DNA of 64,000 bases from Eledone cirrhosa (Eukaryota), in the NCBI GenBank assembly GCA_964016885.1, contig OZ024750.1:40920001-40984000 (forward strand), read 5' to 3'. How positions within the stretch are numbered: the stretch's first letter is position 1; every line of letters begins with the position of its first letter. Shown here piece after piece: positions 10,331 to 39,499 of this stretch. A program made the translations under genes and the position numbers. The notes beneath the pieces are model-generated. The model was not told the DNA's origin. It saw nothing but the letters and a program-made list of their open reading frames with translations, and searched no databases.

Positions 10331-10780
10331 CGATATTAAATAAATGGAAATTATATTTATAAAACCATATCTATTTCATTATATATATTTCAGGGATATC
10401 ATATTAAAAATATGTTATGCCTTCTTCAGACAAAATACAATATAAACAGTCTTATAAATAGATAGATTCGACATACCTTTTCAACTTCGACTTGCATTTG
10501 AAAAGTTGAAGTTGAAAAGGTATGTCAAAGTTGAAAAGGTATGTCGAATCTATCTATTTATAAGACTGTTTATATTGTATTTTGTCTGAAGAAGGCATAA
10601 CATATTTTTAATATGATATCCCTGAAATATATATAATGAAATAGATATGGTTTTATAAATATAATTTCCATTTATTTAATATCGTTAATATACTCCAAAT
10701 ACTTGTTGAGTGCTTTTATATCAGTTATAAATATTTACTCGTTGTAACCCAACAATTTAAATATAACTTTCCATGTATCT
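10331..10780 (+). mobile_element. Penelope-like pLTR remnant with inverted upstream duplication (family P1)
   Basis: 10331-10487 is the reverse complement of 10528-10684; the arms carry a hammerhead; homologous to 33521-33833 and 39240-39420. Confidence 0.7.
10578..10643 (+). ncRNA. Type-I hammerhead ribozyme (mirror copy on the minus strand near 10372-10437)
   Basis: TATTTTGT-CTGAAGA-AGG..CCT-GAAA-TATATA-TA-ATGAAATA; stem I pairs with two G-U wobbles. Confidence 0.75.
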
Positions 10781-10892
10781 TTATATATATATCTTTATAT
10801 ATATATATATAGATATATACACACACACACTAAAACAAGATGGCGTAGGACAGAACAAAGGAGAGGCACAAAAACAAAGAAAAGAATCCCCA

Positions 10893-10935
10893 GTCACTGA
10901 AGAGGTCACATAATGTGTGACGAAAGAACTTTGAC
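10893..10935 (+). ncRNA. Minimal type-I hammerhead ribozyme motif
   Basis: GTCA-CTGAAGA-gGTCACA taatg TGTGAC-GAAA-GAAC-TT-TGAC. Confidence 0.72.
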
Positions 10936-11263
10936 AATATATGAACAATCGTCTGGTTGTGGAACCAACCAACCAACAGGAAATTTATAAATTTAATTTA
11001 TAATAAATTGAAGTGAAAGCAACTGGTGCGTGTGTTTCTTATTGGCAACATGACCCTCCCAAAGCATAACAATATCGGTTTCAACACACGATTTCAGATA
11101 AAGAATCTTGCTAAACAAATTCAGAAACGAAATATATATATATATATCGCTCGCTCTCTCTCTCTCTCTCTCTCTTTCTCTCTCTCTCTCTCTCTCTCTC
11201 TCTCTCTCTCTCTCTCTCTCTCTCTCTTTCTCTCTCTTACTCTTTCTCTCTCTCTCTCTCTCT

Positions 11264-12078
11264 ATCATTAACATCCATCTTCCATGCTAGCATGGGTTTG
11301 GACGGGAATTTTCCCACTTGAGGCAAGATTGGTTGTCTTGCTCGTATAGGACTGTCTGGCGGGTTTTCTATGGCTGGATGCCCTTCCTAACACCAAGCAC
11401 GTTACAAGTGTGGACTGGGAGGTTTTTACCGTGTTACCTACATGGCCACATTACAGCGTGGACTGTGTGTTTTTTTGTCGTGACACCTACACGACCTCAT
11501 TTGTTTCGTACTGGATGTTGTGGTACCAACATAACTTTACATTGGAAGGGGTGGTGTGGATGGGGTGGGGGTAGTGGGACGGGGGTGTATTTTTGTTAAA
11601 AGTGCCTACTGACTAGGTTTCGCTTTGTACTTAGGCAAGGCGGGTCTTCTCTATTACTGTGTAGCGCCAAAGATCTCGGTTCAGTGACATTGTCTTCGAG
11701 AGGTGTGTGTGAGGTCGGAATTTATCAAGTCGTCCCAGGTTTTTCTGGGTCTGCCTACTCCGTGGCTACCATCTATTTTTATCGCCCTGCACTTTTTTAT
11801 ACAGTTGTCGTCTTTCATGCGCATCACGTAACCGTACCAACGTAGTCTTCTCTCGAGTAAACAGCATCTGATCCCTCTTATTCCTAATTTCTCCCTTAGT
11901 TCGTTTATGCTTTGCCGTTCACGTATATTACTATTACACATCCAACGGAGCATGCAAGCTTTGTTCCTCTCCAGTTTGCATCTCTCCAGTTTGCATATAT
12001 CCTCTGCACACAATGGCCAGGTCTCACTGCCATGCAGCATTGCTGTTCATATGCAGGCATCATACAGCCTGCCTTTCA
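11264..12078 (-). mobile_element. 5'-truncated RTE-clade LINE (post-RT C-terminus plus 3' UTR)
   Basis: ORF 11681-12040 has the RTE C-terminal motifs LHGSETW..MLRWMC..RRLRWYGYVMRM..GRPRKTW; its 3' UTR matches the copy at 32925-33483. Confidence 0.85.
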
Positions 12079-12169
12079 TATATATATATATATATATATA
12101 TATATATATATATATCTCATATCTCTATATCTTTATCTATATCTCATATCTATATATATCTATCTATAT

Positions 12170-35847: not shown

Positions 35848-38385
35848 ATGGTCCTTCCAATATTTGTTGTAGAGAGAGAGAGATAGTGGGAGGAAGTACG
35901 GGGAACAGCATATATAGTCCTTCTATAGCCATACAATATTTGTTGTAGAGAGAGAGAGAGAGATAGTGGGAGGAAGTACAGGGAACAGCATATATAGTCC
36001 TTCTATAGCCATACAATATTTGTTGTAGAGAGAGAGAGATAGTGGGAGGAAGTACGGGGAACAGCATATATAGTCCTTCTATAGCCATACAATAGTTGTT
36101 GTAGAGAGAGAGAGATAGTGGGAGGAAGTACAGGGAACAGCATATATAGTCCTTCTATATCCATACAATATTTGTTGTAGAGAGAGAGAGATAGTGGGAG
36201 GAAGTACGGGGAACAGCATATATAGTCATTCTATAGCCATACAATATTTGTTGTAGAGAGAGAGAGAGAGATAGTGGGAGGAAGTACAGGGAACAGCATA
36301 TATAGTCCTTCTATAGCCATACAATATTTGTTGTAGAGAGAGAGAGATAGTGGGAGGAAGTACGGGGAACAGCATATATAGTCCTTCTATAGCCATACAA
36401 TAGTTGTTGTAGAGAGAGAGAGATAGTGGGAGGAAGTACAGGGAACAGCATATATAGTCCTTCTATAGCCATACAATATTTGTTGTAGAGAGAGAGAGAT
36501 AGTGGGAGGAAGTACGGGGAACAGCATATATAGTCCTTCTATAGCCATACAATATTTGTTGTAGAGAGAGAGAGAGAGATAGTGGGAGGAAGTACAGGGA
36601 ACAGCATATATAGTCCTTCTATAGCCATACAATATTTGTTGTAGAGAGAGAGAGATAGTGGGAGGAAGTACAGGGAACAGCATATATAGTCCTTCTATAG
36701 CCATACAATAGTTGTTGTAGAGAGAGAGAGATAGTGGGAGGAAGTACAGGGAACAGCATATATAGTCCTTCTATAGCCATACAATATTTGTTGTAGAGAG
36801 AGAGAGATAGTGGGAGGAAGTACAGGGAACAGCATATATAGTCCTTCTATAGCCATACAATATTTGTTGTAGAGAGAGAGAGATAGTGGGAGGAAGTACA
36901 GGGAACAGCATATATAGTCCTTCTATAGCCATACAATATTTGTTGTAGAGAGAGAGAGATAGTGGGAGGAAGTACGGGGAACAGCATATATAGTCCTTCT
37001 ATAGCCATACAATATTTGTTGTAGAGAGAGAGAGAGAGTGGGAGGAAGTACGGGGAACAGCATATATAGTCCTTCTATAGCCATACAATATTTGTTGTAG
37101 AGAGAGAGAGATAGTGGGAGGAAGTACGGGGAACAGCATATATAGTCCTTCTATAGCCATACAATATTTGTTGTAGAGAGAGAGAGAGAGATAGTGGGAG
37201 GAAGTACAGGGAACAGCATATATAGTCCTTCTATAGCCATACAATAGTTGTTGTAGAGAGAGAGAGAGAGATAGGTAGGGAGGAAGTACGGGGAACAGCA
37301 TATATAGTCCTTCTATAGCCATACAATATTTGTTGTAGAGAGAGAGAGATAGTGGGAGGAAGTACAGGGAACAGCATATATAGTCCTTCTATAGCCATAC
37401 AATATTTGTTGTAGAGAGAGAGAGAGAGATAGTGGGAGGAAGTACGGGGAACAGCATATATAGTCCTTCTATAGCCATACAATATTTGTTGTAGAGAGAG
37501 AGAGATAGTGGGAGGAAGTACGGGGAACAGCATATATAGTCCTTCTATAGCCATACAATATTTGTTGTAGAGAGAGAGAGAGAGAGAGATAGTGGGAGGA
37601 AGTACGGGGAACAGCATATATAGTCCTTCTATAGCCATACAATATTTGTTGTAGAGAGAGAGAGATAGTGGGAGGAAGTACGGGGAACAGCATATATAGT
37701 CCTTCTATAGCCATACAATATTTGTTGTAGAGAGAGAGAGAGAGAGATAGTGGGAGGAAGTACGGGGAACAGCATATATAGTCCTTCTATAGCCATACAA
37801 TATTTGTTGTAGAGAGAGAGAGAGAGAGATAGTGGGAGGAAGTACGGGGAACAGCATATATAGTCCTTCTATAGCCATACAATATTTGTTGTAGAGAGAG
37901 AGAGAGAGAGATAGTGGGAGGAAGTACGGGGAACAGCATATATAGTCCTTCTATAGCCATACAATATTTGTTGTAGAGAGAGAGAGATAGTGGGAGGAAG
38001 TACGGGGAACAGCATATATAGTCCTTCTATAGCCATACAATATTTGTTGTAGAGAGAGAGAGAGAGAGATAGTGGGAGGAAGTACGGGGAAACAGCATAT
38101 ATAGTCCTTCTATAGCCATACAATATTTGTTGTAGAGAGAGAGATAGTGGGAGGAAGTACGGGGAACAGCATATATAGTCCTTCTATAGCCATACAATAG
38201 TTGTTGTAGAGAGAGAGAGATAGTGGGAGGAAGTACGGGGAACAGCATATATAGTCCTTCTATAGCCATACAATATTTGTTGTAGAGAGAGAGAGAGAGA
38301 TAGTGGGAGGAAGTACAGGGAACAGCATATATAGTCCTTCTATAGCCATACAATATTTGTTGTAGAGAGAGAGAGATAGTGGGAA
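35848..38385. repeat. ~76-82-bp minisatellite with an internal variable (AG)n
   Basis: Unit ATAGCCATACAATATTTGTTGT(AG)nATAGTGGGAGGAAGTAC(A/G)GGGAACAGCATATATAGTCCTTCT. Confidence 0.97.
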
Positions 38386-38477
38386 GGAGACTGAGTGGAA
38401 GAGAGAGAGGCAGTGGGAGAGAGTGAGAGGGAGTGAGAGAACAGGAAACAGCAATACACAGGATATGACCAGAAAAA

Positions 38478-38928
38478 TAGCAGAATGGGATAACATCTAT
38501 ATTTCTGTAGCGGAATGGGATAACATCTATATTTCTGTAGCAGAATGGGATAACATCTATATTTCTGTAGCGGAATGGGATAACATCTATATTTCTGTAG
38601 CAGAATGGGATAACATCTATATTTCTGTAGCGGAATGGGATAACATCTATATTTCTGTAGCAGAATGGGATAACATCTATATTTCTGTAGCGGAATGGGA
38701 TAACATCTATATTTCTGTAGCAGAATGGGATAACATCCATATTTCTGTAGCGGAAATGGGATAACATCTATATTTCTGTAGCAGAATGGGATAACATCTA
38801 TATTTCTGTAGCGGAATGGGATAACATCTATATTTCTGTAGCAGAATGGGATAACATCTATATTTCTGTAGCAGAATGGGATAACATCTATATTTCTGTA
38901 GCGGAATGGGATAACATCCATATTTCTG
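38478..38928. repeat. 30-bp minisatellite
   Basis: C(A/G)GAATGGGATAACATCTATATTTCTGTAG, about 15 copies. Confidence 0.97.
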
Positions 38929-39279
38929 AACCCTACAGTTCAGTGTCCACTTTAATGATAATGTCATACTGGGGGCTTTTTGTTGTGTCACCTACACGTC
39001 CACTTCACAGTGTGGACTGGGTGATTTTTTGTCGTGGCACGACCACTTAACAGCTTGTACCCGTGGGAAGTCAGGTCTTCTGTAGAAACAGTTTAATGGT
39101 GTTTCGCTTTAAAGTATATCCTAGTTCAGAACTGGTGTAAAAATCTGTCAGAATGCTGTAGGGCTGTGATCCACCTCTCTCTCTCTATCTCTCTCTCTCT
39201 GTATATATATATATATATATATATATATATATATACACAATATATTAATAAATGGAAACTCTATTTATAAAACCATATT

Positions 39280-39345
39280 TATTTTATTATATATATTTCA
39301 AGGGCAACCAAGGTAAATTATGGTGCGCTTTCATCAGATAAAATA
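39280..39345 (-). ncRNA. Type-I hammerhead ribozyme in a solo family P1 copy (39240-39420)
   Basis: Minus strand: TATTTTAT-CTGATGA-AAG..CTT-GAAA-TATATA-TA-ATAAAATA; perfect 8-bp stem I. Confidence 0.78.
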
Positions 39346-39499
39346 CAGATTTGTTTTATAAATAAATATTGACATACCCGGAAAAAAAGACAACCTTAAC
39401 GGCTGGAGCTTCCTGGATAGTGGAGATAATTAAATATAACCCTCTGCATATATATATATATATATATATATATATATATATATATATATACATATATAT

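What the first reader, a model, noticed from the sequence alone, without database searches (positions are those of the whole stretch)
10331..39420. Family P1: three diverged copies showing hammerhead covariation and copy-specific inversions
Seen: copies at 10331-10780, 33521-33833 and 39240-39420 keep CTGANGA..GAAATATATATA while stem II is rewritten (AGG/CCT with CATAT/ATATG; GTACCAA/TTGGTAC; ACCA/TGGT) and stem I remains paired. Within a locus the arms are nearly identical, whereas loci differ clearly. The 33652-33702 spacer matches sequence upstream of the solo copy (CTATCCAG..CCGTTAAGG). Inference: each insertion made its own inverted upstream copy, the known PLE signature, and the RNA structure was under selection.
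Basis: partly seen in the sequence, partly recalled or inferred. Interest (0 to 1): 0.75.

Follow-up and report, generated by a model that had tools for sequence, protein, structure and literature searches.

The report
Two-armed Hydra-clade Penelope retrotransposon ends
The three repeats are the ribozyme-bearing ends of three related families of a known animal jumping gene, and their mirror-image arms, nearly always one short-ended and one long-ended, were likely copied from one RNA into both sides of a cut TA repeat.

Summary
The sequence is as described, but these are not three copies of one family. Each is the 3' end (pseudo-LTR with a type I hammerhead motif) of a different high-copy family of Hydra-clade Penelope-like elements. 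Full units of about 3.7 kb encode RT plus GIY-YIG. The inference survives a better test. All 21 head-to-head pairs among the first 100 listed hits carry the same family on both arms, arms share rare variants up to 3.7 kb apart, and 20 of 21 pairs scored one short end plus one tail end. Copy 3 is not solo: it carries an inverted 21-base tail tip. Stem II covaries across families (8 of 9 pairs change on both sides); cleavage is untested. Each end lies 3-9 bases before one of two look-alike hairpins. The inverted copy, tail and hammerheads are published; this scan already noted the short/long rule and twin hairpins elsewhere in this genome. Verdict: new families of a known kind, with a testable two-start insertion model.

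The parts
10331..10509 (-). Copy 1 (family A), inverted arm; ends at the short site, 5' end about 77 bases upstream of its hammerhead core (core 10388-10429)
   Evidence: (row L098)
10510..10780 (+). Copy 1, tail-ended arm: short tandem duplication near its start, hammerhead core 10586-10627, predicted cleavage after 10635, about 90-base tail running into TA-rich repeat
   Evidence: cleavage position inferred from hammerhead numbering
10692..10711 (+). Tail hairpin 1 (ACTC ... GAGT), a few bases behind the short end site
32886..32930 (-). Copy 2, tip of the tail of the left arm, next to (TA)n
32931..33477 (+). Unrelated young repeat nested in the copy 2 tail; 3' end of a LINE-like ORF ending in (GAT)n (the RTE-type label is recalled, from no call)
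   Evidence: siblings 98-99%
33478..33651 (-). Copy 2 (family B, sublineage B2), tail-ended arm with hammerhead core 33585-33624
33652..33702 (+). 'Spacer': the unpaired 5' part of the right arm, starting 78 bases upstream of the core where many copies start
33703..33832 (+). Copy 2, short-ended arm with hammerhead core 33730-33769; shares a 3-base duplication and five substitutions with the left arm
39240..39428 (-). Copy 3 (family C), short-ended arm with hammerhead core 39296-39337
39428..39448 (+). Copy 3, inverted second arm made only of the last 21 or so bases of the tail, then (TA)n
   Evidence: read against the family C tail printed (row L128)

Best explanation
The three loci are 5'-truncated, head-to-head insertions of three Hydra-clade Penelope-like retrotransposon families in TA repeats, and their two arms were likely reverse-transcribed from one source RNA at two start sites. 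Shown: family anatomy (pseudo-LTR with hammerhead motif, tail, ORF with RT and C-terminal GIY-YIG, long 3' UTR, second pseudo-LTR); two fixed 3' ends about 90 bases apart; one look-alike hairpin 3-9 bases behind each end; one short and one tail end per pair; stem II covariation between families. Inferred: the endonuclease nicks both strands of (TA)n. Each free 3' end primes cDNA at one of the two hairpin-marked sites. Each cDNA stops on its own, often near 80 bases upstream of the core (probably the RNA 5' end). The two cDNAs are joined head to head. The hammerhead was probably selected in the active source elements and would need a partner or the element's protein to cleave. Odds: classification about 0.95; both arms RNA-templated from one source about 0.8; one and the same RNA molecule about 0.55.
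For: Anatomy: HHR-ORF-HHR unit of 3747 nt in L198 (family A) and 3676 nt in L203 (family C); family B in L047/L061, L069, L073, L076, L079, L086. Protein look-alikes: RT-type clusters (0.95-0.98, RVT_1 on 16-20% of members in two rows) and GIY-YIG clusters (0.95-0.97) (one source). Hydra motifs match PMC8557442 section 11 and its alignments. 32,056 exact core-pattern hits against 1 control. Among the first 100 listed hits, 21 head-to-head pairs under 4.2 kb; 20 of 21 scored short plus tail (0 of 100,000 permutations reached this), and the 21st has a tail by eye. The 13 pairs 400 bases or more apart differ by 4 in 13 x 124 bases; the partner is closer than the nearest other copy in 7, tied in 5, further in 1. 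Inverted overlaps of 571, 452 and 259 bases have 1, 0 and 0 mismatches. Arms are not always nested: the short-ended arm is the long one in 2 of 12 resolved pairs (L171, L182), and tail-only second arms sit on short-ended copies (window copy 3, L142, L147; L150, L154 by eye). Twin hairpins ACTC/GAGT and GCTC/GAGC in A, B and C. Covariation: 8 of 9 stem II pairs and 3 of 8 stem I pairs change on both sides; score 0.337 against 0.213 shuffled and at most 0.146 slid. In vitro, a Poseidon element nicks and extends both strands and starts at two internal sites that bound the tail (PMC11167929).
Against: No cleavage, expression or transposition data for these families. The rule has exceptions: 1 tail+tail among 17 family A pairs, and 1 short+short plus 1 undetermined among 8 family B pairs. 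Sequence alone cannot tell one RNA from two sister RNAs of the same source. The lowest-energy and consensus folds pair the stem I 5' strand with the GAAA core instead. Columns 12-63 except stem II and N7 were fixed by my search pattern, so core and stem III invariance in alignment A1 is no evidence. Its 29 rows were hand-picked from 52 stem II variants plus the window and are related, so cells overcount events. Pfam and PDB sequence searches found no RT or GIY-YIG match. Copy 2's arms share four changes absent from its 24 closest relatives, which local gene conversion explains equally well.
Confidence: 0.8

Rival explanations
1. Two RNA molecules from the same source element, held by a protein dimer, each template one arm; an asymmetry of the dimer makes one start at the short site and the other at the tail site.
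For: Explains shared rare variants and overlapping arms without strand displacement. A dimer is predicted for the Poseidon protein (PMC11167929).
Against: Needs an extra rule to give 20 of 21 mixed pairs. Tail-only second arms on short-ended copies fit a second enzyme stalled behind the first on one RNA, but they are few and show no clear pile-up at the short site.
Confidence: 0.25
2. The inverted arm is a fold-back copy made by self-priming at a palindrome, as proposed for rotifer Penelope elements on an antisense template (PMC3846280).
For: Many junctions fall in or next to a hairpin at the pseudo-LTR 5' end. The tail-ended arm is the longer one in 10 of 12 resolved pairs, as nesting would predict.
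Against: In L171 and L182 each arm holds sequence that the other lacks. In window copy 3, L142 and L147 the arms do not overlap at all. A DNA copy of one arm cannot give these.
Confidence: 0.12
3. Arm identity comes from gene conversion between close inverted repeats after insertion, not from how the insertion was made.
For: Copy 2: six changes shared by both arms and one arm-specific; its 3-base duplication occurs at 3 places genome-wide, the two arms and one arm of L158. L155 has 2 shared private changes and L046 has 3.
Against: Shared private changes are rare overall: 1 in 15 family A pairs, 0 in 9 family B pairs. Arms 2.4-3.7 kb apart are as alike as close ones. It does not explain the end rule. 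For copy 2 alone I put it near 0.4.
Confidence: 0.06
4. The loci are MITE-like DNA transposons with terminal inverted repeats, and the hammerhead motif is a chance product of AT-rich sequence.
For: Short inverted repeats in TA DNA; unremarkable folding z-scores.
Against: The repeat is contiguous with an RT/GIY-YIG ORF; arms are variably 5'-truncated with unequal ends; 32,056 hits against 1 control; stem II covaries.
Confidence: 0.01

Closest known systems
Hydra clade of C-terminal EN+ Penelope-like elements (Craig et al. 2021, PMC8557442), e.g. Hydra-1_Obim, Hydra-2_Amil, Penelope-13_HM
   Same: Single ORF with RT then GIY-YIG; DKT; CxCx5C linker; no CCHH; hammerhead in the pseudo-LTR; (TA)n targets; inverted 5'-truncated copy (listed for Penelope-13_HM).
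   Different: Unit 3.7 kb rather than under 3 kb; RWR in place of RWK; tail about 90 bases rather than 30-40; long stem II with a C.C mismatch and an ATATATAT stem III. Five of six short motifs of these families were absent from the paper's supplement and the sixth hit a Naiad sequence; Hydra-1_Obim has another hammerhead.
Minimal type I hammerheads of metazoan Penelope-like elements (Cervera and de la Pena 2014, PMC4209133)
   Same: Type I core in pseudo-LTRs, palindromic stem III, several families per genome 'full of covariations', dual motifs 100-700 bp apart on opposite strands, most copies truncated.
   Different: The first stem II pair is variable (AU 14, GU 7, GC 3, unpaired 5 of 29) rather than a conserved G10.1-C11.1; stem I is longer (8 bp) and AU-rich.
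Poseidon_Ac internal initiation (Frangieh et al. 2024, PMC11167929)
   Same: Two internal start sites bound the tail; both strands are cut and extended; AT-rich targets.
   Different: There the ORF starts inside the hammerhead and both starts lie in one AC-rich stem-loop; here the ORF starts about 235-245 bases after the core and each end lies before its own hairpin. The two parts of that paper that I read do not address how inverted arms arise.
Animal non-LTR retrozymes (bioRxiv 10.64898/2026.07.22.740005)
   Same: Type I hammerhead units related to pseudo-LTRs.
   Different: Retrozymes are non-coding tandem arrays; these are truncated ends of coding elements in inverted pairs.

Membership tests
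EN+ Penelope-like element | Single ORF with RT and GIY-YIG endonuclease | tested here: met
   L198 (two frames, one frameshift), L047, L069, L076; atlas look-alikes. Pfam gave no RT or GIY-YIG hit.
EN+ Penelope-like element | Pseudo-LTRs from partial tandems, with the hammerhead motif inside | tested here: met
   Same repeat before and after the ORF in L198 and L203; before the ORF in L073, L079, L086.
EN+ Penelope-like element | Inverted 5'-truncated copy and a tail at one end only | tested here: met
   21 head-to-head pairs, 20 scored one short plus one tail end; all three window loci.
Hydra clade | C-terminal EN with CxCx5C linker and no CCHH finger | tested here: met
   CxCx5C upstream of the GIY-YIG core, and one cysteine rather than two inside it, in families A and B.
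Hydra clade | DKT in place of DKG; RWK motif near the N-terminus | tested here: met
   DKT present; the RWK position reads RWR in A and B, aligned by eye with Hydra-1_Obim.
Hydra clade | Insertion into (TA)n | tested here: met
   Both ends run into (TA)n in the window and in most fetched loci.
Hydra clade | Generally short (<3 kb); a tendency in the paper, not a diagnostic | tested here: not met
   Units of 3747 and 3676 nt, owing to a 3' UTR of about 1.2 kb.
Hydra clade | Placement in the RT phylogeny with reference Hydra proteins | not tested
   Reference proteins were seen only as supplement text; no tree was built.
Type I hammerhead ribozyme | CUGANGA and GAAA core, U16.1-H17, three stems | tested here: met
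   cleavage triplet AUA; stem III is 2 bp as a monomer and self-complementary over 8 bases.
Type I hammerhead ribozyme | Conserved G10.1-C11.1 pair | tested here: not met
   GC in 3 of 29 rows; none of the window copies has it.
Type I hammerhead ribozyme | Self-cleavage | not testable with these tools
   Needs an in vitro assay; the predicted monomer fold is inactive in copies 1 and 3.
Non-LTR retrozyme | Non-coding tandem array of hammerhead units | tested here: not met
   Contiguous with a coding element; inverted, not tandem.

The most novel reading that the evidence does not exclude
Hydra-clade Penelope elements insert by double internal priming: one RNA carries two copies of a small start hairpin about 90 bases apart, each end of a doubly nicked TA repeat starts a cDNA at one of them, the rear enzyme displaces or stalls behind the front one, and the two cDNAs are fused head to head. 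This would explain the inverted pseudo-LTR and the one-sided tail with one mechanism.
Probability: 0.5. Interest if true: 0.65.

Novelty: new member of a known kind. Interest (0 to 1): 0.33.

Why it matters
As a discovery it is modest: inverted pseudo-LTRs, the tail and covarying hammerheads in Penelope-like elements are published (PMC8557442, PMC4209133, PMC3846280). Its value is as a test bed. How these telomerase-related elements build inverted ends is still open (PMC8557442 says so in its discussion). With over 32,000 hits in several young families, the end rule, shared variants and non-nested arms narrow the models to two and name the RNA hairpins to mutate. My literature searches listed no paper stating the short-plus-tail rule or twin hairpins, but the scan itself has noted both before.

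Tried and rejected
Rfam scan of the window: no hammerhead family among the 150 of 232 matches shown, which were microsatellite noise. Pfam and PDB sequence search: nothing for the ORF. Inverted-repeat finder: swamped by (TA)n. General homogenisation of arms: rejected; one search overstated arm differences through an edge effect and one search corrects it. Dating copy 2 by its nested repeat: the repeat is young (98-99% siblings), so it cannot separate a decayed source from local conversion. ADAR editing as the cause of copy 2's shared changes (lead from e1-8665674): only 1 of the 4 shared arm substitutions whose other state I could read is A-to-G, so rejected. Pile-up of tail-only arms at the short site: too few and scattered. 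Expression: no RNA holder listed. Laying contigs on copy 2: uninformative in a high-copy repeat. No tRNA gene called in the window. Look-ups of earlier findings by place-near and by sequence: nothing relevant.
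Full report
Observation. The three loci were read directly. Five hammerhead cores lie in them, among 13 window matches to CTGANGA..GAAA against 1.76 expected. Copy 1 arms have 156 identities and no mismatch; copy 2 arms match at 129 of 130. The loci are 75-78% alike. The copy 2 spacer is element sequence: the right arm is simply less truncated than the left. Two corrections extend the loci. Copy 2's left arm runs on through a tail to about 32886, split by a 547-base young repeat. 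Copy 3 carries a second, inverted arm of about 21 bases at 39428-39448, the tip of the family C tail.

Three families, not one. The window lies in a 3.0-Gb genome. Each copy pulled its own set of relatives: 838 first-look candidates with best others at 98-99% for copy 1, 1215 at 93-95% for copy 2, 2020 at 97-98% for copy 3; 40 candidates were scored in each search. A tight core pattern has 32,056 exact hits against 1 for the reversed control. The ORFs of families A and B are 68-69% identical. So the contrast between loci reflects family divergence. Within a family, arms differ little less than unrelated copies do: A 13/2157 against 1.0% (15 pairs, 44 arms from L098-L127), B 22/1035 against 3.6% (9 pairs, three of them copies of one event; the window's own pair fell below my 88% cut-off and is not in this count), C 11/340 against 1.6% (2 pairs).

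What the element is. Walking upstream from family B copies led through a 3' UTR of about 1.2 kb into a GIY-YIG domain and an RT. Walking further reached a second pseudo-LTR whose tail reads on into the 5' UTR and the start codon. Natural full units are 3747 nt in L198 (A) and 3676 nt in L203 (C). Pfam and PDB gave nothing; the protein atlas gave RT-type and GIY-YIG clusters. The motifs are those listed for the Hydra clade: DKT, CxCx5C, no CCHH, hammerhead, (TA)n targets, with RWR for RWK (PMC8557442: passages, abstract, sections 3 and 11, supplement passages and part 2 of 59). These families are not among that paper's sequences as far as six motifs can tell. No tree was built.

Hammerhead. In 29 hand-picked rows (three window arms and 26 of 52 stem II variants), 92% of cells pair. 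Eight of 9 stem II pairs and 3 of 8 stem I pairs change on both sides; the covariation score is 0.337 against 0.213 shuffled (0 of 500) and at most 0.146 slid. A C.C mismatch interrupts stem II in nearly all rows. Limits: the rows are related; my pattern fixed the core and stem III; the outer stem is out of register for family C and copy 2. The first stem II pair is G-C in only 3 of 29. Energy folding prefers an inactive pairing of stem I with the GAAA core. This fits published minimal hammerheads, which cleave poorly alone (PMC4209133, parts 1-2 of 4) or need the element's protein (PMC11167929, parts 1-2 of 4). Selection is inferred for the active lineages, not for these copies.

How the inverted arm arises. 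The first 100 hits listed (contig C1, to 22 Mb) include 21 head-to-head pairs under 4.2 kb; I fetched all 21 and part of the singles (70 loci, 86 hits). Every pair has one family on both arms. Twenty scored one short end and one tail end, and the last has a tail by eye; no permutation of 100,000 reached 20. In the query-selected sets the rule held in 16 of 17 A pairs (1 tail+tail), 6 of 8 B pairs (1 short+short, 1 undetermined) and 3 of 3 C pairs; 10 C loci were not scored. The 13 pairs at least 400 bases apart differ by 4 bases in 13 x 124 and share rare variants; L180/L181 differ by 0 while the nearest other copy differs by 6. Both arms can reach hundreds of bases into the 3' UTR. The tail-ended arm is longer in 10 of 12 resolved pairs, but in L171 and L182 neither arm contains the other, and in copy 3, L142 and L147 they do not overlap. 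That argues against a pure fold-back copy, the model of PMC3846280 (passages). Each end lies 3-9 bases before a hairpin, ACTC/GAGT at the short site and GCTC/GAGC at the tail site, 91-94 bases apart in A, B and C, 83 in one B copy (distances read by eye). I took the hairpin lead from note e1-8673755 and checked it here. Many arms stop 77-93 bases upstream of the core, which I read as the RNA 5' end (inference). With the two internal starts and two-strand extension shown for a Poseidon element, the simplest model is two primers, two start hairpins, one source RNA. Two sister RNAs cannot be excluded.

Unexplained. Against its 24 closest relatives, copy 2's arms share six changes, four seen in none of them, and differ at one site. 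The 3-base duplication occurs elsewhere only in one arm of L158. Either a decayed source was copied once into both arms, or the arms were homogenised later; the nested repeat is too young to decide.

Comparison and novelty. The inverted 5'-truncated copy, the one-sided tail, opposite-strand hammerhead pairs and covarying families are all in print. The retrozyme preprint (parts 1-3 of 5) concerns tandem non-coding units, which these are not. Five literature searches listed no paper on the end rule or twin hairpins. Earlier notes of this scan report both in this genome and others; they are not independent support. One of those notes calls the genome an octopus; I did not test that.

Verdict. Real, ordinary in kind: three new families of Hydra-clade Penelope-like elements. 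Interest 0.33. The boldest reading, double internal priming on one RNA, has probability about 0.5 and would merit 0.65.

Noticed in passing
window 10151-10192 (+) and 10897-10925 (+): Two more hammerhead-like cores of other families beside copy 1; the second folds a clean stem II.
   Followed up: partly
window 8246, 8540, 24468, 25305, 25799, 32339: Six further core-pattern matches; about two are expected by chance.
   Followed up: no
window 39503-39620: Near-perfect hairpin of about 115 bases next to copy 3, followed by a repeat also seen at 32800-32885 and in L018, L144, L146; it may be another element's end folded back at a ribozyme stem (inference).
   Followed up: no
window about 8750-9250: Inverted pair of one repeat around a long (TA)n run, with tRNA-like A and B boxes by eye (recalled motif); no tRNA gene called.
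   Followed up: partly
window 38600-38930: Tandem array with a unit of about 30 bases.
   Followed up: no
window 10296-10330 and 10778-10805: The (TA)nTCTT flank recurs on both sides of copy 1, a possible target-site duplication of 23-25 bases with 6 bases shared with the element's tail end (by eye).
   Followed up: no
L009, L013, L014/L015: One family B short+short insertion inside the GIY-YIG region of a different Penelope-like element, present at three places with 95-98% identical flanks.
   Followed up: partly
L163, L165, L169, L189 and others: The commonest family A variant in the sample has A opposite C at the first stem II pair, yet is highly amplified.
   Followed up: no
30-80 bases upstream of the core in families A, B, C (e.g. 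window 10470-10530, 33652-33695): Each family has a hairpin at the pseudo-LTR 5' end with largely different sequence; inversion junctions cluster there.
   Followed up: partly
L067, L062, L064: Long inverted repeats of 1.0-1.8 kb inside Penelope-like sequence, 92-95% identical.
   Followed up: no
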